Positions 58,860 through 64,000 of a stretch of 64,000 bases of DNA are shown here, one piece after another (positions within the stretch are counted from its first letter, which is position 1; the number at the start of each line of letters is the position of its first letter). The notes below the pieces were generated by a model, which did not search any database, was not told the origin of the DNA, and saw only the letters and a list, made by a program, of their open reading frames with translations. A program made the translations under genes and the position numbers. This DNA comes from a virus. The stretch lies in the UHGV virus genome UHGV-1497419; one strand, given 5' to 3'.

Positions 58860-59021
58860 AAGGAGAAACCACAATGTACGTCAGAGACATACTGTATAAG
58901 CCTTCTTATAAAGTATAACTCTGTAAAAAAGCCCTGTCTAAAAATACTCTTCGGTAGCGAAAGGAAGAATACTTATAGCAGGGCATTATTATTATTTTAA
59001 TTGAGAGAGAGTAAAATAACT

Positions 59022-59097
59022 TGGAGAATCCGAAGGGACTCGAACCCTTATAAACCTGTTTTGCAGACAGGCACATAGCCATTTCTGTCACGGATTC
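59022..59097 (-). tRNA. tRNA-Cys (anticodon GCA)
   Basis: Manual cloverleaf: acceptor GAAUCCG/CGGAUUC, anticodon loop CUGCAAA, T-arm AAGGG-UUCGAGU-CCCUU, CCA encoded. Confidence 0.7.
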
Positions 59098-59101
59098 AAA
59101 T

Positions 59102-59194
59102 TGGAGGAAGATACCAGACTTGAACTGGTACACCGATTTCTCAGCTACTGGCAGTTTAGCAAACTGCTCCCTTACCTTTTAGGGTTAATCTTCC
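59102..59194 (-). tRNA. tRNA-Ser (anticodon GCU), long variable arm
   Basis: Acceptor GGAAGAU/AUCUUCC, anticodon loop UUGCUAA, long variable arm, T-loop UUCAAGU; 93 nt. Confidence 0.65.
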
Positions 59195-59196
59195 AT

Positions 59197-59931
59197 TTAT
59201 TTCTGTAATGCGCTCTTCATTTCTGGTGTTGCAATAGTGTCAATCACACCAGTTTTACAGGCATCATCAAACCAGTCTGGTAAGATACCTGCTAAGAACC
59301 CATTGATATTCGTTTTAAGGTACTCTGCAATAAGGGCAGCTTCTTCTTCAATCATCTGCACAACTTCATCTGCATAAGCTGTAATCTTTGAAATACCTTC
59401 ATTAATCTTACTAACAGCCTGATTAGCTAAATCAGAAACAGTATCAAGACCCTTATCAATAGCATCTTGCAAGTCACTTAACACACCATTAACACTATCT
59501 AGTGTACTGTTCATCATGTCAATAGCTTTTTGACCATACTCTGTAGCAACACCCATGATACCACTGAATGGTGTACAACCAACTTGTTCTCCTGCTGCAC
59601 CCATAACATTGGAATACCCCTTTGCTACCTGCATACGTGATGAAAACTCATCAATAGACTTTTGACCGTAGTCTGTCAGAGTTTTAGTAGTTGCTGTAGT
59701 GCTTGTAAGGCTTGTTGTAAAGCTGTTTAGAAGGACTGTTGTAAGTCCAGCAGCAACAAGTTTCTCCTTCATTGTAGGGTCTGTTACAGAACTAATAGAG
59801 CTTACAAGTGATGTAGAAGCAGCTACGGTTCCACCGAGAACTGCTGCACCAGTAATAAGTGGGTTAGAGAACCCTTTACCGGTTTTTAAGAGATTAAAAA
59901 TCTCCTTACCTTGTTCTGTCATCTCTTTCAT
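59197..59931 (-). CDS. Hypothetical Ser/Thr/Ala-rich protein embedded in tRNA cluster
   Basis: Track ORF trimmed to the ATG behind AAGGTG so it does not overlap tRNA-Phe. Confidence 0.35.
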   Translation of the reverse strand: MKEMTEQGKEIFNLLKTGKGFSNPLITGAAVLGGTVAASTSLVSSISSVTDPTMKEKLVAAGLTTVLLNSFTTSLTSTTATTKTLTDYGQKSIDEFSSRMQVAKGYSNVMGAAGEQVGCTPFSGIMGVATEYGQKAIDMMNSTLDSVNGVLSDLQDAIDKGLDTVSDLANQAVSKINEGISKITAYADEVVQMIEEEAALIAEYLKTNINGFLAGILPDWFDDACKTGVIDTIATPEMKSALQK

Positions 59932-59947
59932 TAAGCACCTTTGAAAT

Positions 59948-60024
59948 TGGTAGTCCAGTGGGATTTGAACCCTCTTCTCATGTTTTTCAGACACGCGCTT
60001 TAACCATATAAGCTACTTGGACTA
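59948..60024 (-). tRNA. tRNA-Phe (anticodon GAA)
   Basis: Acceptor UAGUCCA/UGGACUA, anticodon loop CUGAAAA, T-loop UUCAAAU. Confidence 0.65.
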
Positions 60025-60029
60025 TAAAT

Positions 60030-60105
60030 TGGGGTGACCTACGGGATTTGAACCCGTATAGACCATGTTCACAGCATGGGTCATTACCATTTATGATAAG
60101 GCCAC
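60030..60105 (-). tRNA. tRNA-His (anticodon GUG)
   Basis: Acceptor GUGGCCU/AGGUCAC, anticodon stem CCAUG/CAUGG, loop CUGUGAA. Confidence 0.7.
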
Positions 60106-60136
60106 ATTTAAGGACTCTCGCAAGAATCCTTAGAAG

Positions 60137-60212
60137 TGGCAGCGGCATAAGGATTTGAACCTTAATAGGACAGCTTCAGAGGCTGCTGCATTGCCAGTTA
60201 TGCTATACCGCT
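60137..60212 (-). tRNA. tRNA-Gln (anticodon CUG)
   Basis: Standard 76-nt cloverleaf; anticodon loop UCUGAAG gives CUG at positions 34-36. Confidence 0.6.
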
Positions 60213-60217
60213 AAATT

Positions 60218-60296
60218 TGGTACTCCATATCGGATTCGAACCGATACATAACACAGATTTTAAGTCTGGCCTCTCTGCCAATTGGAGTAATGGAGC
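60218..60296 (-). tRNA. tRNA, class I length, anticodon read as UAA (isotype uncertain)
   Basis: Clear acceptor stem and T-arm (AUCGG-UUCGAAU-CCGAU); best anticodon loop CUUAAAA; no long variable arm expected of tRNA-Leu. Confidence 0.45.
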
Positions 60297-60298
60297 AT

Positions 60299-60374
60299 TG
60301 GCGGGGGATGTTGGAATTGAACCAACTTCTTCGATTTCAAAGACCGAGGTTTTAACCTTGTAAACTAATCCCCT
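60299..60374 (-). tRNA. tRNA-Gln (anticodon UUG), with A1-C72 mismatch
   Basis: Anticodon stem UCGGU/AUCGA, loop CUUUGAA, T-loop UUCAAUU. Confidence 0.55.
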
Positions 60375-60382
60375 TTAAATCT

Positions 60383-60940
60383 TTACTTTCTCAGTGGATG
60401 AATAAAGAATGCCAACATAACTCTTTCCCTTGAGAATGCTCTTTCTTCTGGGACAACACTTTTTAGTTTCCATCCAATATAAATTCTCCAGTAAAATTGT
60501 TTACCAAAGATTTTAATTGATGGGATAAAAGCGAATAATCCCCAAGCATTACTGTTCCACATTAGGAGATAACCTGTCTGATTATCTTCGGGGTCAGAAC
60601 TTACGTTGATATTACCTTTCCACTTAGTAACATCTTTTACATCTCTTCCTAATACATGGTAAGAGAAGTTATAAGCTTTGTTTCTCCAGAGCCATCCAAC
60701 TCTCTGCATGTAGACACCTAGCTTACCAATCTTTCTAATCTTAGCCCATCTTTTAACGTGGCCTTCATCACCATCAATCGGGTTGTCATAGGTCTCCATC
60801 CATCTGAATCCAAAAGGTAGATGTCCTTTCTTCTCACTGTAGAATGGAACTACGAAAGGTGCTAAGATGACTGCTATGGTTGCTGCAAATGGTTCTAACA
60901 AAGCTAAGAAAATCCATGAAACATATTTTAAGTATCTCAT
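60383..60940 (-). CDS. Hypothetical membrane protein within tRNA cluster
   Basis: 185 aa; hydrophobic N-terminal segments; GAGGG ribosome-binding site. Confidence 0.35.
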   Translation of the reverse strand: MRYLKYVSWIFLALLEPFAATIAVILAPFVVPFYSEKKGHLPFGFRWMETYDNPIDGDEGHVKRWAKIRKIGKLGVYMQRVGWLWRNKAYNFSYHVLGRDVKDVTKWKGNINVSSDPEDNQTGYLLMWNSNAWGLFAFIPSIKIFGKQFYWRIYIGWKLKSVVPEERAFSRERVMLAFFIHPLRK

Positions 60941-61179
60941 TGTCTAACCCTCGTAAGGAGGTAAGCATTATTATTTGTTTCTGAGCTTTCTGGTAACATT
61001 GTCTCAAAATTGATGCTTTTAAGTTGTCTTCCACCAAAGCAATGACCAATAAATCTTTCTACTTTTATTGGGTCGCATTCCCATCCGACTTTCAAGAAAA
61101 TGTGGGTATCTATAGTGGGAACCCTTACAAACTCAATACTATTGGGATTTTCATGTTCAACGACGATTAATGTTTGCAT
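60937..61179 (-). CDS. Hypothetical protein within tRNA cluster
   Basis: 80 aa; AAGAGGAA ribosome-binding site. Confidence 0.3.
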   Translation of the reverse strand: MQTLIVVEHENPNSIEFVRVPTIDTHIFLKVGWECDPIKVERFIGHCFGGRQLKSINFETMLPESSETNNNAYLLTRVRQ

Positions 61180-61197
61180 AAATTCCTCTTGCTTATC

Positions 61198-61273
61198 TGG
61201 CGCAGGATAAGGGATTCGAACCCCTATTAACAGCTTCGTAGACTGTTGCTCTATCCATTTGAACTAATCCTGC
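61198..61273 (-). tRNA. tRNA-Arg (anticodon ACG)
   Basis: Acceptor GCAGGAU/AUCCUGC, anticodon stem ACAGU/GCUGU, loop CUACGAA. Confidence 0.7.
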
Positions 61274-61278
61274 AAAAT

Positions 61279-61356
61279 TGGTGTTCCAAGACGGATTCGA
61301 ACCGTCACTAGTACAAGGTTTGAGCTTGCATCCTCTGCCAATTGGGATACTGGAAC
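61279..61356 (-). tRNA. tRNA, class I length, anticodon read as CAA (isotype uncertain)
   Basis: Acceptor and T-arm (GACGG-UUCGAAU-CCGUC) are clear; anticodon stem GCAAG/CUUGU with loop CUCAAAC. Confidence 0.45.
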
Positions 61357-61357
61357 A

Positions 61358-61432
61358 TGGTACTCACTAAAGGACTTGAACCTTTTTCTTCATCTTGTAA
61401 GGGTGATGTTTTACCATATAAACTAAGCGAGT
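61358..61432 (-). tRNA. tRNA-Val (anticodon UAC)
   Basis: Standard cloverleaf: D-stem GUUU/AAAC, anticodon loop CUUACAA, T-arm AAAGG-UUCAAGU-CCUUU. Confidence 0.6.
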
Positions 61433-61528
61433 ATGAAAGAGGTCTGAAGTTGTGCCGCTAACTCAACTCCGTGGAATTTGTTACGGTCTTCAGTTGACTC
61501 AAAGCGGTCTTTCACTTGACCTCTGAAT

Positions 61529-61605
61529 TGGTGCTGCTCACAGGACTCGAACCTGCATTTCCATCCTTACAAGGGATGTGTAATAGCCAATTATACGAAA
61601 GCAGC
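61529..61605 (-). tRNA. tRNA-Thr (anticodon UGU)
   Basis: Acceptor GCUGCUU/GAGCAGC, anticodon stem CAUCC/GGAUG, loop CUUGUAA. Confidence 0.7.
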
Positions 61606-61611
61606 ATTGTT

Positions 61612-61686
61612 TGGAGCATCCAGAGGGAATCGAACCCTCAACCTCAGTTTGGAAGACTGTAATTTTCCCGTTTAAACTATGGATGC
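61612..61686 (-). tRNA. tRNA-Gly (anticodon UCC)
   Basis: Acceptor GCAUCCA/UGGAUGC, anticodon loop CUUCCAA, T-arm GAGGG-UUCGAUU-CCCUC. Confidence 0.6.
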
Positions 61687-61692
61687 ACTAAT

Positions 61693-61768
61693 TGGTGGAG
61701 AAGCAGGGAATTGAACCCTGTACTTAAGTTTGCAAAACTTATGTTTTAACCATGTAAACTACATCCCC
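61693..61768 (-). tRNA. tRNA-Ala (anticodon UGC)
   Basis: Anticodon stem UAAGU/ACUUA, loop UUUGCAA; G3-U70 wobble pair in the acceptor stem, the Ala identity element. Confidence 0.65.
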
Positions 61769-61774
61769 AATGTT

Positions 61775-61850
61775 TGGTACAGGTGGAGGGAATTGAACCC
61801 ATCGTCTTACTGATTAAGAGTCAGCCGCATAACCATTTTGCTACACCTGC
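61775..61850 (-). tRNA. tRNA-Lys (anticodon CUU)
   Basis: Anticodon stem GCUGA/UCAGU, loop CUCUUAA. Confidence 0.6.
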
Positions 61851-61857
61851 ATTAATT

Positions 61858-61935
61858 TGGTAGGAGACAAGGGATTCGAACCCTCAAACACCAACTTCTA
61901 AGGATGGTAGGTTTACCAATTACCGTCAATCTCCC
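61858..61935 (-). tRNA. tRNA, class I length, anticodon read as UAG (isotype uncertain)
   Basis: Acceptor GGGAGAU/GUCUCCU, T-loop UUCGAAU, anticodon loop CUUAGAA; D-arm irregular. Confidence 0.4.
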
Positions 61936-62190
61936 ATTAAATCTTTTTAGAGAACTTCTAAGAACCTAAGCAACAAGGTTCCACAACAAGCTGTAATAAC
62001 CTTAGAAGCCCTCTAAAAAGACCTAAAAAGGTCTTTGCATAGTCTTGTTTAATCCGGTGACTAGAACCTTTGGAGAGCTTGATATTATCTCTTCTCCGTG
62101 ACACCTACTAGGTGCTTTATCAGTGTGTACGACAATACACGCGGGATACCAAAGCGACATCCGAATGAAGCTTGGCTTTAAATCTTATTA

Positions 62191-62280
62191 GGCGGTAAGT
62201 AAAGGAGTCGAACCCTCACCGTATCTCTACAGTGGCAACAGTTTTCAAGACTGTTTGGCTGCCATTAGCCGCTACCTACC
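62191..62280 (-). tRNA. tRNA-Ser (anticodon UGA), long variable arm, CCA not fully encoded
   Basis: Acceptor GGUAGGU/ACUUACC, anticodon stem ACAGU/ACUGU, loop CUUGAAA, long variable arm, T-loop UUCGACU. Confidence 0.55.
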
Positions 62281-62293
62281 CCTAATAAGACTT

Positions 62294-62376
62294 TGGCATG
62301 GGACGGAGGAGTTGAACCCCTTTGAAACGGTTTTGGAGGCCGTTGCTCATGCCTTAGAGTCTTAACATCGTCCCAT
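62294..62376 (-). tRNA. tRNA-like gene, possibly tRNA-Trp (anticodon CCA) with expanded D-loop
   Basis: Acceptor AUGGGAC/GUCCCAU and CCA end are clear; best anticodon loop CUCCAAA; D region about 7 nt longer than canonical. Confidence 0.4.
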
Positions 62377-62518
62377 ACTATAATTCGAAGCTTACCGTAT
62401 TATCTCAACACTGTAAAGCCCCTTCTCAGATTATTTACATGTTCTGGAAAACATGAGATACAGACCACCTCCCTACACGGAGACCCACTAAGGTCGTCTA
62501 AGTAATCTGCTAACTAAT

Positions 62519-62595
62519 TGGCACACCCTACAGGATTCGAACCTGTAACTAACGATTTAGAAGACCGTTGCTCTATCCAATTGAACTAAGGGTGC
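62519..62595 (-). tRNA. tRNA-Arg (anticodon UCU)
   Basis: Acceptor GCACCCU/AGGGUGU, anticodon stem ACGGU/AUCGU, loop CUUCUAA. Confidence 0.7.
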
Positions 62596-62887
62596 ATTAA
62601 TCTTTAAAGACTCTCTTAGAAAGCCCTTAAAGATGCCCACCTTATTAATCATACCGTGGGCTAGTACGCCAAATTCTTTGATGAGGGATTGGAAGACCTC
62701 ACTGGTGTTTAGCCTATCAAGCTACTGCCAGAAAAACATTGTCGTTTGCATTTATTTTAAATTTGCAAAATAGACGCTACGCAACGAAAACTATTCAGAA
62801 TATGTACAACAAATTTCCCCACATTGTGTTACGTCTAACGCTCATGTATTGGTGTTTGAATTATACATATTATGAAGTATTTTAGTT

Positions 62888-62916
62888 ACTATAAAATAGT
62901 CACATCTCAGTGTCAA
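62888..62916 (-). promoter_or_regulatory. Sigma70-like promoter inside tRNA cluster
   Basis: Minus strand reads TTGACA - 17 nt - TATAGT; transcript would include a ~280-nt leader and tRNA-Arg(UCU). Confidence 0.5.
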
Positions 62917-62931
62917 CAACTTTATTGAAAT

Positions 62932-63007
62932 TGGTACTGGTAGGTGGAATCGAACCACCGATGTTCCCTTATCAGGGGAGTGTTATAACCTTCTTAACTA
63001 TACCAGC
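62932..63007 (-). tRNA. tRNA-Ile (anticodon GAU)
   Basis: Acceptor GCUGGUA/UACCAGU, anticodon loop CUGAUAA, T-arm GGUGG-UUCGAUU-CCACC. Confidence 0.65.
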
Positions 63008-63008
63008 T

Positions 63009-63085
63009 TGGAGGTTCAGATGGGAATCGAACCCACATTCATAGGGCTTATGAGACCCTTGCATTACCTTATCTGCGACTGAACC
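63009..63085 (-). tRNA. tRNA-Met (anticodon CAU; initiator, elongator or Ile-lysidine not distinguished)
   Basis: Acceptor GGUUCAG/CUGAACC, anticodon stem AGGGU/GCCCU, loop CUCAUAA. Confidence 0.65.
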
Positions 63086-63089
63086 ATTT

Positions 63090-63165
63090 TGGTAGAAGTG
63101 GAGGGATTCGAACCCATCGCCTGTCAGATTAAAAGTCTGCCGCATCACCATTCTGCTACACTTCC
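63090..63165 (-). tRNA. tRNA-Lys (anticodon UUU)
   Basis: Acceptor GGAAGUG/CACUUCU, anticodon loop CUUUUAA. Confidence 0.65.
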
Positions 63166-63172
63166 ATTAAAT

Positions 63173-63307
63173 TATCTTTGTAGATAAGCTACCCAGACTT
63201 GCTTAAGGTCTGTAGCGATGTGTCTTTTCGGGTTAAATCTAGAATCCACCCTTCACCTTTGTGGTCGCATACTCACAGGGAAGCTTAATAACTTATCTAC
63301 AAAGATA
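63173..63307. repeat. Perfect 16-bp inverted repeat pair (TATCTTTGTAGATAAG / CTTATCTACAAAGATA) separated by 103 bp
   Basis: Exact reverse complements at 63173-63188 and 63292-63307, each followed by CCAGAC; no ORF or tRNA between them. Confidence 0.6.
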
Positions 63308-63360
63308 ATTACCAGACCGTTGTTTATCATCTTAAGTGCTACCATTACACCAACTCGACA

Positions 63361-63404
63361 TCTGCCGAGTGAAGGAATCGAACCTTCGCCTTTTCTTTAC
63401 CGAG
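63361..63404 (-). pseudogene. tRNA 3'-half remnant (T-arm plus acceptor 3' strand without matching 5' half)
   Basis: Perfect T-arm GAAGG-UUCGAUU-CCUUC then ACUCGGC, but no complementary 5' acceptor strand or anticodon arm upstream. Confidence 0.35.
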
Positions 63405-63422
63405 AAATATATTGTTTAAGTT

Positions 63423-63450
63423 TTGCTGTAAACGGTCTTCTGTAAATTTG
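63423..63450. repeat. 28-nt motif TTGCTGTAAACGGTCTTCTGTAAATTTG, copy 1
   Basis: Identical to 63965-63992; a partial variant lies at 63507-63531. Confidence 0.6.
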
Positions 63451-63590
63451 TTGAGCCAGACCAAGTTTTAAATTTTTCAAAATTAAATTGGCTTGAAATT
63501 TTAAGTAACTTGCTGTATTTGGTCTTCTGCTCCTTTAAAGAATACTCGTAAGAACTCTTTAAGGGAGGGGCTAAATAGCCCTCTCAAAAT

Positions 63591-63668
63591 TGGCGGTTAC
63601 GAAGGGATTTGAACCCTCATCATCTCCCGTGACAGGGGAGTATTTTAACCAAATTAAACTACATAACC
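63591..63668 (-). tRNA. tRNA-Asp (anticodon GUC)
   Basis: Acceptor GGUUAUG/CGUAACC, anticodon stem CUCCC/GGGAG, loop CUGUCAC. Confidence 0.7.
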
Positions 63669-63673
63669 TTTAT

Positions 63674-63761
63674 TGGTGTGCCGTGTAGGAGTCGAACCTA
63701 CCGAGTCTCAATGACAAGGGATTTACAGTCCCCACCGCTACCATCTACGGGATAACGACAC
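63674..63761 (-). tRNA. tRNA-Tyr (anticodon GUA), long variable arm
   Basis: Anticodon stem GGGGA/UCCCU, loop CUGUAAA, long variable arm, T-arm GUAGG-UUCGACU-CCUAC. Confidence 0.6.
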
Positions 63762-63830
63762 ATTTAATTTCTATTCAGGCTAAGGACTTGCACCTTACAA
63801 ATCGGTGAGCAATCGCTTCTCTCCTAAATT

Positions 63831-63907
63831 TGGCGGTTAGTCAGGGATTCGAACCCTGTGCCATTCGCTTAACAGGCGACCGCACATACCTTATGTGCTT
63901 CCTAACC
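63831..63907 (-). tRNA. tRNA-Asn (anticodon GUU)
   Basis: D-stem GCAC/GUGC, anticodon loop CUGUUAA, T-arm CAGGG-UUCGAAU-CCCUG. Confidence 0.6.
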
Positions 63908-63964
63908 ATGTTTAGTATTACCAGACCGTATCTTTCAATTTTTCCGCTAAAAATTTAATAAATG

Positions 63965-63992
63965 TTGCTGTAAACGGTCTTCTGTAAATTTG
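63965..63992. repeat. 28-nt motif TTGCTGTAAACGGTCTTCTGTAAATTTG, copy 2
   Basis: Exact copy of 63423-63450, about 58 nt upstream (minus sense) of tRNA-Asn. Confidence 0.6.
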
Positions 63993-64000
63993 GAGGCGGG
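63991..64000 (-). tRNA. Possible 3' end of a further tRNA truncated by the window edge
   Basis: TGGAGGCGGG is the reverse complement of ...CCCGCC-U-CCA; too short to confirm. Confidence 0.25.

What the first reader, a model, noticed from the sequence alone, without database searches (positions are those of the whole stretch)
59022..64000. Large minus-strand tRNA cluster including several non-canonical members
About 25 tRNA genes are packed in 5 kb with 2-6 nt spacers in places. Manual folding gives Cys, Ser(GCU), Phe, His, Gln(CUG), Gln(UUG), Arg(ACG), Val, Thr, Gly, Ala, Lys(CUU), Ser(UGA), Arg(UCU), Ile, Met, Lys(UUU), Asp, Tyr and Asn. Three genes (60218-60296, 61279-61356, 61858-61935) read as leucine anticodons (UAA, CAA, UAG) but have class I length with no long variable arm. 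One (62294-62376) has a D region about 7 nt too long with a CCA anticodon. One Gln gene has an A1-C72 mismatch. These are either mis-folds on my part or genuinely aberrant tRNAs.
Basis: seen in the sequence. Interest (0 to 1): 0.55.

Follow-up and report, generated by a model that had tools for sequence, protein, structure and literature searches.

The report
Phage tRNA array hiding other RNAs
This is the known tRNA gene array of a Felix O1-like phage; its three short leucine tRNAs and odd tryptophan-like RNA are real and conserved, and the gaps hold unannotated small RNAs: likely partners of the phage's Ro60-like protein, and a tmRNA-like tag element.

Summary
Window 59022-64000 (minus strand) is most of the tRNA array of a Felixounavirus, 94-97% identical to over 200 phage genomes.

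The three Leu-anticodon genes really lack the long variable arm (5-7 nt loops). They are not mis-folds or pseudogenes. They keep a Leu-type D arm, U8, A15, U48 and A73 (A14 in two of the three). Short Leu tRNAs are common in viral tRNA arrays, whereas Ser and Tyr keep long arms.

The CCA-anticodon gene is a conserved tRNA-like RNA with an invariant 10-nt linker before a 3-bp D stem. The A1·C72 mismatch in one Gln tRNA is real.

The "spacers" are more interesting:
- Three small RNAs (63310-63444, 63455-63535, 63919-63986) share AAG, a terminal stem, UACAGCAA, an insert, the stem's return strand and CUGG.
- One of them carries a permuted tRNA mimic laid out like bacterial YrlA Y RNAs.
- The same design sits beside Ro60-like (DUF2828) genes in nine phage lineages, and it resembles Dictyostelium Class I RNAs.
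- 62596-62795 encodes a tmRNA-like tag, ANDNVFLAVA**. The element occurs in 625 phage records and is unannotated in every record I inspected.

No RNA, charging or binding data were available.

The parts
59022..59097 (-). tRNA-Cys(GCA)
   Evidence: ARAGORN; Rfam tRNA 56.4 bits
59102..59194 (-). tRNA-Ser(GCU), with a long variable arm
   Evidence: ARAGORN; Rfam 46.2 bits
59197..59994 (-). ORF of 265 aa inside the array (DUF7217, PHROG 2114), function unknown
59948..60023 (-). tRNA-Phe(GAA)
60030..60105 (-). tRNA-His(GUG)
60137..60212 (-). tRNA-Gln(CUG), with A1-U72 and G73
60218..60296 (-). Type-I tRNA-Leu(UAA). It has a 7-nt variable loop, a 3-bp D stem (CUC/GAG) with loop CAAUUGGCAGA, U8, A14, A15, U48, A73 and G1·U72.
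   Evidence: ARAGORN; Rfam 47.5 bits. At least 99% identical in 206 of 269 phage records. Positions read.
60299..60374 (-). tRNA-Gln(UUG), with an A1·C72 mismatch and G73
   Evidence: Rfam 56.6 bits
60383..61179 (-). Two ORFs, 185 aa (DUF7338) and 80 aa, function unknown
61198..61273 (-). tRNA-Arg(ACG)
61279..61356 (-). Type-I tRNA-Leu(CAA). It has a 6-nt variable loop, D stem UCC/GGA, U8, A14, A15, U48 and A73.
   Evidence: Rfam 43.6 bits. No blastn match in 5,426 E. coli genomes.
61358..61432 (-). tRNA-Val(UAC)
61433..61528 (-). Conserved structured spacer with outer stem AGAGGUC/GACCUCU. It is 91-99% identical in Moogle and SUSP1, more than the neighbouring ORF.
61529..61850 (-). tRNA-Thr(UGU), Gly(UCC), Ala(UGC) and Lys(CUU)
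61858..61935 (-). Type-I tRNA-Leu(UAG). It has a 5-nt variable loop, a weaker D stem, U8, A15, U48 and A73; position 14 as indexed is U. A homologue is found in T5-like phages.
   Evidence: Rfam 40.0 bits. The 77-nt tRNA-Leu(UAG) of DT571/2 is.
62015..62118 (-). Block of about 85 nt that is invariant across three phage genera, followed by a terminator-like hairpin AAAGACC-UUUUUA-GGUCUUUUU
62191..62280 (-). tRNA-Ser(UGA), with a long variable arm
62294..62376 (-). Trp-like non-canonical tRNA. It has a CCA anticodon, G73, an encoded CCA end, an invariant 10-nt linker GAUGUUAAGA, a 3-bp D stem and a 31·39 mismatch.
   Evidence: Rfam 23 bits on the tRNA-Sec model only. Compensatory changes in Moogle and in Yersinia phage P778.
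62519..62595 (-). tRNA-Arg(UCU)
62596..62795 (-). tmRNA-like element. The resume-like sequence AAUAAAU is followed by a tag frame at 62749-62714 that reads ANDNVFLAVA** and has no start codon.
   Evidence: Rfam tmRNA 15.2 bits and tmRNA_permuted 20.3 bits. ARAGORN -m at relaxed threshold. Peptide-level conservation. Found in 625 phage records and 338 E. coli genomes; no annotation in any listed row.
62888..62916 (-). Sigma-70-like promoter TTGACA-17-TATAGT, in an insert present here and in FM4b
62932..63165 (-). tRNA-Ile(GAU), a CAU-anticodon tRNA (Met or Ile2) and Lys(UUU)
63310..63444 (-). Small RNA with a terminal stem (AGACCGUU/AACGGUCU), the UACAGCAA motif and a permuted tRNA mimic. The mimic has a V hairpin at 63407-63391, a T arm at 63387-63371, a closed acceptor-like hairpin at 63370-63353 and a D arm at 63351-63335.
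63455..63535 (-). Short sibling RNA with stem GACCAA/UUGGUC, the UACAGCAA motif and a CUGG end
63591..63907 (-). tRNA-Asp(GUC), Tyr(GUA, with a long arm) and Asn(GUU)
63919..63986 (-). Short sibling RNA with stem GACCGU/ACGGUC, the UACAGCAA motif and a CUGG end
   Evidence: (47.3 bits with model R1)

Best explanation
The region is the larger part of the tRNA array of a Felix O1-like (Felixounavirus) phage, read from the minus strand as polycistronic transcripts.

Shown:
- There are 23 cloverleaf tRNA genes.
- Three are type-I (short variable loop) leucine tRNAs with anticodons UAA, CAA and UAG.
- One is a conserved Trp-like RNA with an 8-nt surplus between the acceptor and D stems.

Inferred:
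- The Leu tRNAs are charged by host LeuRS. They keep the elements E. coli LeuRS reads (A73 and the U8-A14, A15-U48, G18/G19-T-loop core), and that enzyme does not need the long arm.
- Phages can therefore lose the Leu arm, but not the Ser or Tyr arm, which those synthetases use.
- The array supplies decoders for an AT-rich codon set (UUA 27%, UUG 14%, CUA 10% of Leu codons).

The array also carries non-tRNA genes.

Shown:
- There are three small RNAs built as AAG, a terminal stem, UACAGCAA, an insert, the stem's return strand and CUGG.
- One of them has a permuted tRNA mimic as its insert.
- The same design recurs next to Ro60-like (DUF2828) genes in nine phage lineages.

Inferred:
- These are the Y-RNA-like ligands of the Ro60-like protein encoded just upstream of the array, outside this window.

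A tmRNA-like tag-coding element lies 5' of tRNA-Arg(UCU). How it works is not known.
For: Identity of the region:
- Megablast gives 94-97% identity to over 200 Felixounavirus genomes.
- The annotated KhF1 array matches gene for gene.

Leu tRNAs:
- ARAGORN and Rfam both call them.
- All 93 distinct short Leu-anticodon tRNAs from the fetched viral loci have U8, U48 and A73. A14 is present in 91 and A15 in 92. Among non-Leu tRNAs of the same loci, 44% have A73.
- In an alignment of 38 of them, 20 of 21 cloverleaf pairs show compensatory changes.
- In loci where the search pattern had hit a non-Leu tRNA, the count is 35 short to 24 long Leu. Ser is 93 long to 2 short and Tyr 29 long to 4 short.
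- The E. coli tRNALeu identity set is stated in PMC2377443 and PMC6614811.

Trp-like RNA:
- Compensatory changes are seen in the T stem (Moogle) and in the acceptor, anticodon and D stems (P778). The linker is invariant.

Small RNAs:
- The motif occurs three times in 64 kb, all in the array.
- The acceptor-like hairpin covaries: 3 pairs have double changes, and 98.9% of cells are paired against about 40% when the partners are slid.
- A strict descriptor finds 28 hits in 26.8 kb flanking Ro60-like genes, against 2 in the other 95 kb, 1 on opposite strands and 0.02-0.28 per shuffled locus. It finds none in the two fetched loci with no Ro60-like gene.
- The upstream protein models as Ro60. The model has mean pLDDT 87, and the top 12 PDB hits are all Ro60/TROVE, with E-values from 6e-9 to 1e-6.
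- The YrlA layout V-T-AS-D is described in PMC4201824.
- Bas63 gp130 is Ro60-like and counters the Ppl defence system. Its authors only guessed that Y RNAs sit among the annotated tRNAs (bioRxiv 10.1101/2024.10.10.617714).
Against: - No expression, charging or binding data exist here.
- E. coli LeuRS did not charge the type-I tRNALeu(CAA) of S. coelicolor (PMC6614811), so charging of the phage Leu tRNAs is not guaranteed. That tRNA ends its variable loop in C48, whereas the phage ones have U48.
- Leu(UAG) has a weak D stem with one mismatch, lacks A14 as indexed, and has the lowest Rfam score of the three (40 bits).
- The Trp-like RNA fails every tRNA caller at default thresholds and is absent from SUSP1.
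- The Rfam YrlA model does not hit the window's tRNA mimic.
- The RNA motif differs from the GNCGAA motif of known YrlA RNAs.
- The Ro60-like gene itself lies outside the window.
- The viral sample of short Leu tRNAs was drawn with a pattern that favours them. Only the 67-locus subset is unbiased.
Confidence: 0.8

Rival explanations
1. The three Leu-anticodon genes are decaying or mis-assigned. Either they are pseudogenes that lost their variable arm, or they are class I tRNAs of another isotype whose anticodon mutated, so that they are uncharged or insert another amino acid at Leu codons.
For: They have class I length. E. coli LeuRS failed on a natural type-I tRNALeu from Streptomyces (PMC6614811). 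tRNAscan-SE annotation of an Erwinia relative labels one homologue 'Undet'. Leu(UAG) scores only 40 bits.
Against: The D arm is the Leu kind, with a 3-bp stem and an 11-nt loop AAUUGGYAGA. A73 is present in 93 of 93 and A15-U48 in 92 of 93 short viral Leu tRNAs. Compensatory changes occur at 20 of 21 pairs. The genes are nearly invariant across more than 250 genomes. All three score above the Rfam gathering score.
Confidence: 0.1
2. The short variable arm is a selected adaptation rather than a tolerated loss. It would let phage Leu tRNAs escape a host or phage nuclease that recognises the long arm of class II tRNAs, or prevent mischarging by SerRS.
For: [quoted passage not shown] Short Leu tRNAs are frequent in unrelated viral arrays.
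Against: No nuclease specific for the tRNALeu long arm was identified here. Tyr, which is a known target, keeps its long arm in these arrays (29 long to 4 short). The pattern Ser and Tyr long, Leu short is what synthetase requirements alone predict.
Confidence: 0.2
3. The Trp-like gene at 62294-62376 is a non-functional relic of a tRNA-Trp that suffered an insertion.
For: It is not called by ARAGORN at default settings. Rfam gives 23 bits, below threshold. It is missing from SUSP1. It has a 31·39 mismatch. The Erwinia relative has a canonical tRNA-Trp instead.
Against: The inserted linker GAUGUUAAGA is invariant. The stems show compensatory double changes in Moogle and in P778, whose Ro60-like protein is only 53% identical. 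The CCA anticodon, G73 and the CCA end are kept.
Confidence: 0.2
4. The repeated stem-plus-UACAGCAA elements are DNA or processing signals, such as phage promoters, terminators or RNase sites, and not stable ligands of the Ro60-like protein.
For: They sit between tRNA genes, where processing signals are expected. Folding energies are not unusual (z-scores of -1.4 to +0.2). No expression data exist.
Against: The same design occurs beside Ro60-like genes in phages of Listeria, Mycobacterium, Campylobacter, Vibrio, Aeromonas and enterobacteria, whose promoters differ. The stems covary while the single-stranded motif is fixed. All copies are on the gene's strand. None is found in the two loci lacking the gene. 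Some copies carry YrlA-like tRNA mimics.
Confidence: 0.12

Closest known systems
Felix O1 / Felixounavirus tRNA array (GenBank annotation, e.g. phage KhF1 KT184313)
   Same: Same genes, order, strand and spacing. The region is 94-97% identical at the nucleotide level, and the three short genes are annotated tRNA-Leu in many records.
   Different: In the records I inspected, the annotations do not remark on the missing variable arm, omit the Trp-like gene, and leave the small RNAs and the tmRNA-like element unannotated.
Type-I tRNALeu(CAA) of Streptomyces coelicolor (PMC6614811) and mitochondrial tRNALeu
   Same: A leucine tRNA with a 5-nt variable loop that coexists with type-II tRNALeu and a single LeuRS.
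   Different: The phage tRNAs carry A15-U48 and A73, the E. coli-type identity set. The Streptomyces tRNA ends its loop in C48, does not use A73, and was not charged by E. coli LeuRS. That paper treats the case as exceptional, whereas here the form is common in viral arrays.
Bacterial YrlA Y RNAs bound by Ro60/Rsr (Rfam RF02553; PMC4201824)
   Same: [quoted passage not shown] Shorter sibling RNAs lie nearby, and the genes sit next to a Ro60-fold protein gene. The YrlA model hits the equivalent element of Mycobacterium phage Lolly9 at 37.7 bits.
   Different: The partner protein belongs to Pfam DUF2828+DUF7788, not TROVE. The conserved single-stranded motif is (U)UACAGCAA, not GNCGAA. The Rfam model gives no hit in the window. 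The genes are embedded in a tRNA array.
Dictyostelium Class I RNAs (Rfam RF01414; PMC7919456)
   Same: They start with AAG, have a 6-7-bp terminal stem whose sequence varies while pairing is kept, carry the motif (CC)UUACAGCAA right after the 5' strand, have a variable interior, end in CUGU or CUGG, and occur in many copies. Among non-tRNA-type families, RF01414 is the one that repeatedly aligns full length: 13-17 bits here, 19-30 bits in Aeromonas and Listeria phages.
   Different: All scores are below the gathering score of 41.5 bits. The phage RNAs can carry large inserts, including tRNA mimics. Class I RNAs are eukaryotic, have their own promoter element and a known RRM partner (Rnp1A), and were reported as unique to Dictyostelia. 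No protein link was tested.
tmRNA (SsrA; Rfam RF00023)
   Same: An A-rich resume-like sequence is followed by a start-less frame that begins AND and ends LAVA plus stop(s). It compares with the E. coli tag ANDENYALAA (from my own knowledge). Substitutions fall at wobble positions of that frame.
   Different: No tRNA-like domain could be identified. The element is about 200 nt. It sits directly 5' of a complete tRNA-Arg(UCU) in this window and in Klebsiella phage MK54. Rfam gives only 15-20 bits.

Membership tests
tRNA (Rfam RF00005 / ARAGORN cloverleaf) | The covariance-model score reaches the gathering score of 29 bits and a cloverleaf is called | tested here: met
   22 genes score 31-65 bits, including the three Leu genes at 47.5, 43.6 and 40.0. 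ARAGORN.
tRNA (Rfam RF00005 / ARAGORN cloverleaf), applied to the Trp-like gene | The same thresholds applied to 62294-62376 | tested here: not met
   No ARAGORN call at default settings. The best Rfam score is 23 bits on the tRNA-Sec model, whose gathering score is 47.
Class II (type II) bacterial tRNALeu | A variable arm of more than 10 nt forming a stem-loop | tested here: not met
   The variable loops are 7, 6 and 5 nt.
E. coli-type tRNALeu identity set | A73 discriminator | tested here: met
   All three window genes and 93 of 93 short viral Leu tRNAs have A73.
E. coli-type tRNALeu identity set | Tertiary core: U8-A14, A15-U48, G18G19 with the T loop, U54-A58 | tested here: met
   U8, A15, U48, GG in the D loop and T loop UUCGAAU are present in all three genes. 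A14 is present in two of the three; Leu(UAG) has U at position 14 as indexed. This is sequence-level evidence only.
E. coli-type tRNALeu identity set | Aminoacylation with leucine by host LeuRS | not testable with these tools
   This needs a charging assay. One natural type-I tRNALeu was not charged by E. coli LeuRS (PMC6614811).
E. coli tRNATrp identity (from my own knowledge: CCA anticodon, G73, A1-U72) | CCA anticodon, G73 and A1-U72 | tested here: met
   All three are present in the window gene. The P778 homologue has G1-C72, so that element is not conserved.
YrlA Y RNA (RF02553) | A tRNA mimic ordered V, T, closed acceptor-like stem, D, enclosed by a 5'/3' terminal stem | tested here: met
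   The layout is as described in PMC4201824.
YrlA Y RNA (RF02553) | Rfam model at the gathering score of 69 bits; GNCGAA motif in the Ro-binding module | tested here: not met
   No hit at E of 10 or better in the window. The sister element in phage Lolly9 reaches 37.7 bits, on the tRNA-like core only. The motif here is UACAGCAA.
YrlA Y RNA (RF02553) | Encoded next to a Ro60 orthologue and bound by it | tested here: inconclusive
   Adjacency holds, and the neighbouring protein has the Ro60 fold. However, it is a DUF2828-family protein, it lies outside the window, and binding is untested.
Dictyostelium Class I RNA (RF01414) | AAG start, 6-bp terminal stem, 11-nt motif CCUUACAGCAA, CUGU end | tested here: inconclusive
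   The window copies have AAG, a 6-8-bp stem, UUUACAGCAA or AAUACAGCAA, and CUGG. Rfam scores are 13-17 bits here and up to 29.6 bits in an Aeromonas phage, all below 41.5.
tmRNA (RF00023) | Tag reading frame with a resume codon and no initiation codon, conserved as a peptide | tested here: met
   Tags ANDNVFLAVA**, ANDNAFLAVA**, ANDAQFLAVA**, ANDNTFLAVA* and ANEEMYLAVA* are found, with changes at wobble positions.
tmRNA (RF00023) | An alanine-accepting tRNA-like domain formed by the 5' and 3' ends | tested here: not met
   ARAGORN finds nothing at default settings. At a relaxed threshold it borrows halves of the neighbouring true tRNAs. A search for complementary ends was unconvincing.

The most novel reading that the evidence does not exclude
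The terminal-stem plus UACAGCAA RNAs may be the cognate ligands of a second, DUF2828-type branch of the Ro60 family that runs through phages of Gram-negative, Gram-positive and actinobacterial hosts. If so, dictyostelid Class I RNAs share the same start, stem, motif and end, and would be eukaryotic members of this Y-RNA-like family. Their unknown function would then be tied to a Ro60-like protein rather than being an invention unique to Dictyostelia.

A second unexcluded reading concerns the tag-coding element 5' of tRNA-Arg(UCU). It may be a new, very widespread kind of phage trans-translation RNA that works without a conventional tRNA-like domain.
Probability: 0.3. Interest if true: 0.85.

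Novelty: new variant of a known kind. Interest (0 to 1): 0.62.

Why it matters
For the finding as written, phage genome annotation and textbooks treat bacterial tRNALeu as always long-armed. In the viral tRNA arrays sampled here the short form is as common as the long one, or more so, and it keeps the E. coli-type identity positions. That fits what is known of synthetase recognition. It matters for tRNA callers, for codon-supply models and for work on tRNA-targeting defence systems.

For what the array hides, a 2024 genetic screen showed that the Ro60-like protein of a Felixounavirus counters the Ppl defence system. Its authors could only guess that Y RNAs lie among the annotated tRNAs. The candidates named here have exact coordinates, a conserved motif and a tRNA-mimic member, which makes that system directly testable.

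The resemblance to Dictyostelium Class I RNAs gives a testable lead on RNAs whose function has been open since 2004. The tag-coding element occurs in 625 phage records and 338 of 5,426 complete E. coli genomes. None of the records I inspected annotates it.

Tried and rejected
- Isotype-specific covariance models (tRNAscan-SE) are not available. I substituted Rfam, ARAGORN, identity-position counts and covariation.
- blastn of Leu(CAA) against 5,426 E. coli genomes found nothing, so no host donor gene could be named.
- Literature searches for a prior description of short-arm Leu tRNAs in phages found only the Streptomyces case. The paper on minimal E. coli tRNALeu substrates that I recalled is not held in the library.
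- The bacterial Schlafen nucleases (PMC13056530) were checked as a possible long-arm-specific nuclease. The cleavage enrichments quoted in the passages returned were for Lys, Met, Ala, Val, Phe and Ile tRNAs, and tRNALeu was not mentioned there, so this idea was dropped.
- Sequence and profile searches of the Ro60-like protein against PDB found nothing. Only the fold search did.
- The AlphaFold-database fold search, meant to ask whether Dictyostelium has a DUF2828 protein, was unavailable. The paper naming the other Class I RNA-binding proteins is not held.
- A covariance model of the short RNAs was abandoned because MAFFT could not keep the 3' stem strands in register. A strict descriptor with shuffle, opposite-strand and distance controls was used instead.
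- A permuted or split functional tRNA gene was considered for 63310-63444 and rejected. The element has no CCA end, the acceptor-like hairpin is closed, and the element is enclosed by the family's terminal stem.
- A promoter reading of the repeated motif was rejected on cross-host conservation.
- For the tmRNA-like element, an ATG-initiated 9-codon frame (MQTTMFFWQ*) was considered. It fits the substitution pattern worse than the tag frame.
- The three ORFs inside the array gave only domains of unknown function.

Full report
**What the region is.** Megablast of 59000-64000 finds 352 phage records. In 215 of them one place covers at least 80% of the query, and the best are 94-97% identical. All of the best are Felix O1-like phages of Escherichia, Salmonella and Shigella. 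The annotated array of phage KhF1 matches gene for gene and shows that the array runs on past the window end with Met, Glu and Pro. The cluster itself is therefore already known.

**Checking the observation.**
It calls none in the other 55 kb.
- Rfam's tRNA model passes its gathering score for 22 of them.
- Spacers of 1-6 nt are real.
- An encoded CCA end is seen in nearly all the printed ARAGORN sequences; Ser(UGA) ends ..GCC.
- The A1·C72 mismatch in Gln(UUG) is real. From my own knowledge of the GlnRS-tRNA complex, the enzyme opens the 1-72 pair, and a weak pair plus G73 belong to Gln identity. A mismatch there is thus not a defect.

**The three leucine tRNAs.** They are 78-79 nt with CCA and have variable loops of 7, 6 and 5 nt. 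They are not ordinary class I tRNAs with a Leu anticodon:
- The D arm is the leucine kind. It has a 3-bp stem and an 11-nt loop, CAAUUGGCAGA. The UAA and CAA genes differ by compensatory changes in that stem (CUC/GAG against UCC/GGA).
- All three have U8, A15, U48, a UUCGAAU T loop and A73. A14 is present in the UAA and CAA genes; Leu(UAG) has U at that position as indexed.
- These are the elements listed for E. coli tRNALeu identity: A73, A14, A15-U48, G18/G19-U55/C56 and U54-A58 (introduction of PMC6614811; PMC2377443).

**How common the short form is.** I scanned IMG/VR with a D-loop-to-T-loop pattern that allows only short spacing and ran ARAGORN on the 120 loci returned.
- Leu-anticodon tRNAs were 110 short and 27 long. 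Ser was 93 long to 2 short, and Tyr 29 long to 4 short.
- In the 67 loci where the pattern had hit some other isotype, so that Leu is sampled without bias, the count is 35 short to 24 long.
- After correcting a one-base ARAGORN offset, all 93 distinct short sequences have A73, against 44% A among non-Leu tRNAs of the same loci. All have U8 and U48, and 92 have A15.
- In an alignment of 38 of them, RNAalifold recovers a cloverleaf with a 5-nt variable loop. Twenty of its 21 pairs show compensatory double changes.
- Relatives include a 77-nt tRNA-Leu(UAG) in T5-like phages and three short Leu genes in an Erwinia phage.
- The same pattern in bacterial genome contigs finds 40 short Leu tRNAs, many of them in loci holding 9-30 tRNA genes.

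The window genes themselves are almost frozen. Leu(UAA) is at least 99% identical in 206 of 269 records.

**Most likely mechanism for the Leu tRNAs (inferred).** Host LeuRS charges them through A73 and the tertiary core. Because that enzyme does not read the long arm, the arm can be lost, whereas SerRS and bacterial TyrRS use theirs. The window's ORFs use UUA 27%, CUU 27%, CUG 17%, UUG 14%, CUA 10% and CUC 6% of Leu codons. The three anticodons therefore cover codons that are frequent in the phage.

The main caveat is that E. coli LeuRS did not charge the natural type-I tRNALeu(CAA) of S. coelicolor (PMC6614811). That tRNA has C48 and does not use A73, but the result means charging must be shown, not assumed. 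A selective reason for losing the arm, such as escape from a nuclease, is possible but has no support here.

**The Trp-like gene (62294-62376).** Default callers reject it. Comparison rescues it as a conserved RNA:
- Moogle has a double change that keeps the T stem (G50-C64 to U50-A64).
- Yersinia phage P778 has a homologue at the same place, just before tRNA-Ser(UGA). Its Ro60-like protein is only 53% identical. The homologue has compensatory changes in the first two acceptor pairs, two anticodon-stem pairs and the D stem (CUC/GAG, CAC/GUG, ACAC/GUGU).
- The linker GAUGUUAAGA, the CCA anticodon, G73 and the CCA end are unchanged.
- The surplus therefore lies between the acceptor and D stems, and positions 31 and 39 never pair.
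- It is absent from SUSP1.

Whether it is charged with Trp or does something else is open.

**The gaps are not spacers.** Several are 91-99% identical between Felixounavirus, Mooglevirus and Suspvirus, where a neighbouring ORF is about 80% identical.

**A family of small RNAs.** By eye, 63310-63444 shows a T arm, then a hairpin whose two strands are the 3' and 5' acceptor strands of a tRNA, then a D arm. All of this is enclosed by an 8-bp stem.
- The 19-nt start of the element, AGAAGACC-NNN-UACAGCAA, occurs three times in the window, all within the array. Relatives have a fourth copy past the window end.
- The acceptor-like hairpin covaries: ACUCGGC/GUCGAGU here, ACCCUUC/GAAGGGU in Moogle, ACACG/CGUGU in SUSP1.
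- On an 8-sequence alignment, 98.9% of cells pair against about 40% when the partners are slid by one to three columns. Three pairs carry double changes.
- This V-T-AS-D order inside a terminal stem is exactly the layout of bacterial YrlA Y RNAs (PMC4201824). However, the Rfam YrlA model does not hit the window element.

**The protein partner.** In relatives, the gene just upstream of the array encodes a 471-aa protein (Pfam DUF2828 + DUF7788; PHROG 850, 'RNA-binding protein'). Sequence and profile searches against PDB find nothing. An AlphaFold model has mean pLDDT 87, and its top 12 Foldseek hits are all Ro60/TROVE proteins, including the Ro60 of Thermus phage phiLo. This is already in the literature for Bas63: gp130 is Ro60-like and counters the Ppl defence system. 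The authors suggest that 'some tRNA genes ... are possibly Y RNAs' (bioRxiv 10.1101/2024.10.10.617714). The candidates found here are not among the annotated tRNAs.

**The RNA design follows the protein across phages.** tblastn finds the protein in 710 phage records. I fetched seven distant loci.
- A covariance model of the tRNA-mimic element finds copies downstream of the gene in Yersinia P778. There the stem has changed compensatorily (GGACUGU/ACAGUCC) and the motif is kept.
- A strict descriptor was defined as: G, a 6-8-bp stem closed by G-C, 0-2 nt, NNC[AU]GCAA, an insert, the return strand, then [ACU]?G. It finds 28 hits in the 26.8 kb flanking the gene in nine phage lineages: two Ounavirinae genera (Felixounavirus and Mooglevirus), P778, Aeromonas 4_4572, Vibrio ValKK3, Cronobacter S13, Campylobacter F360, Mycobacterium Lolly9 and Listeria WIL-1.
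- The same descriptor finds 2 hits in the other 95 kb, 1 on opposite strands in total, and 0.02-0.28 per shuffled locus.
- It finds none in the Erwinia and T5-like loci fetched, neither of which contains the gene.
- Lolly9 and S13 have versions with T, acceptor-like and D arms. The Rfam YrlA model hits the Lolly9 core at 37.7 bits.
- In ValKK3 the element overlaps the ribosome-binding site and start of the Ro60-like gene.

**Resemblance to Dictyostelium Class I RNAs.** Among non-tRNA-type Rfam families, Dicty_Class_I_RNA is the one that repeatedly aligns to these RNAs full length. It scores 13-17 bits in the window, 19-30 bits for seven tandem copies in the Aeromonas phage, and 19-23 bits in Listeria. 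All are below the gathering score of 41.5 bits.

The published description of Class I RNAs (PMC7919456) lists an AAG start, a 6-bp terminal stem with compensatory variation, the motif CCUUACAGCAA next to the 5' strand, a variable interior and a CUGU end. It matches the phage RNAs feature by feature. That paper found no such RNAs outside Dictyostelia. I could not test whether Dictyostelium has a DUF2828 protein. This stays a hypothesis.

**A tmRNA-like element.** The conserved part of the gap 5' of tRNA-Arg(UCU), 62596-62795, gave weak Rfam tmRNA hits.
- It contains AAAAUAAAU followed by GCA AAC GAC AAU GUU UUU CUG GCA GUA GCU UGA UAG, which reads ANDNVFLAVA**. There is no in-frame start codon.
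- The frame is kept in four Ounavirinae genera. In the Erwinia phage, four of six changed codons are synonymous or stop-to-stop.
- ARAGORN recognises the resume sequence and the tag only at a relaxed threshold, and it borrows tRNA-like halves from the neighbouring true tRNAs.
- The element is in 625 phage records, including Kuttervirus and Klebsiella siphoviruses, and in 338 of 5,426 complete E. coli genomes. No listed row shows an annotated RNA feature under the match; a few rows show a 'hypothetical protein' CDS.
- Tags elsewhere read ANDNTFLAVA and ANEEMYLAVA. In a lambdoid prophage the element lies between the antiterminator and holin genes. In Klebsiella phage MK54 it is again followed by tRNA-Arg(UCU).
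- I found no convincing tRNA-like domain, so the mechanism is unknown.

**Verdict.** Its 'aberrant tRNA' reading is right for the Trp-like RNA and too strong for the Leu genes. Those belong to a common, functional-looking and little-noted form. The array itself is known. What appears to be new is the concrete set of Ro60-partner RNA candidates, their possible kinship with Class I RNAs, and the tag-coding element. All functional statements are inferences from sequence, structure prediction and comparative data.

Noticed in passing
window 63310-63444, 63455-63535, 63919-63986 (minus strand): Three unannotated small RNAs share AAG, a terminal stem, UACAGCAA, an insert, the stem's return strand and CUGG. 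The first carries a permuted tRNA mimic (V hairpin, T arm, closed acceptor-like hairpin, D arm) laid out like bacterial YrlA Y RNAs. The same design flanks Ro60-like (DUF2828) genes in nine phage lineages.
   Followed up: yes
L126:950-2365 and L124:515-1930 (just beyond the window's 64000 end in relatives): The 471-aa protein encoded upstream of the array (DUF2828 + DUF7788) has a predicted Ro60 fold. The literature reports that the Bas63 homologue gp130 counters the Ppl defence system. Across phages the gene often sits near tRNA genes or RNA ligase, RtcB and CCA-adding enzyme genes.
   Followed up: yes
L368 5984-6961 (Aeromonas phage 4_4572); L373 5624-5883 (Listeria phage WIL-1); window copies: Rfam's Dictyostelium Class I RNA model aligns full length to these phage RNAs at 13-30 bits, below its threshold. 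The published Class I features (AAG start, 6-bp stem, CCUUACAGCAA, CUGU end) match them. Class I RNAs were reported as unique to Dictyostelia.
   Followed up: partly
window 62596-62795, with the tag frame at 62749-62714 (minus strand): A tmRNA-like element lies directly 5' of tRNA-Arg(UCU). It has a resume-like sequence and a start-less frame reading ANDNVFLAVA**, conserved as a peptide. It occurs in 625 phage records and 338 E. coli genomes (prophages and plasmids), with no RNA annotation in any listed record. No tRNA-like domain was found.
   Followed up: partly
window 62888-62916 (minus strand): A near-consensus sigma-70 promoter, TTGACA-17-TATAGT, lies in an insert present here and in phage FM4b but not in KhF1, Moogle or SUSP1. 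It is followed by a 16-codon ORF (MSVRRNTMWGNLLYIF).
   Followed up: no
window 62015-62118 (minus strand): A block of about 85 nt is identical in Felixounavirus, Mooglevirus and Suspvirus, which makes it more conserved than most of the tRNAs. It contains two hairpins and ends in a terminator-like hairpin, AAAGACC-UUUUUA-GGUCUUUUU. A long hairpin follows at 61937-62030.
   Followed up: partly
window 61433-61528 and 62377-62518 (minus strand): Two more gaps are 91-99% identical across three genera and are predicted to form stable structures. In the second, Moogle and SUSP1 carry a 23-nt insertion. Their function is unknown.
   Followed up: partly
L003 8472-13679 (T5-like phage DT571/2): The T5-like tRNA region is annotated with five 'stable RNAs with unknown functions'. 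One of them, RNAX (636 nt), lies directly 5' of tRNA-Arg(UCU), the same position as the tag-coding element here. No sequence similarity was found between them.
   Followed up: partly
L370 7896-8138 (Cronobacter phage S13): Two oversized 'tRNAs' (121 and 113 nt, annotated tRNA-Ser and tRNA-OTHER) lie just downstream of that phage's Ro60-like gene, next to a 133-nt stem + UACAGCAA RNA that carries a tRNA mimic. They may be further tRNA-mimic RNAs.
   Followed up: no
window 63009-63085 (minus strand): The CAU-anticodon tRNA has a U73 discriminator. ARAGORN calls it Met, while the KhF1 GenBank record calls it Ile (CAU), so its isotype (Met or Ile2) is unresolved.
   Followed up: no
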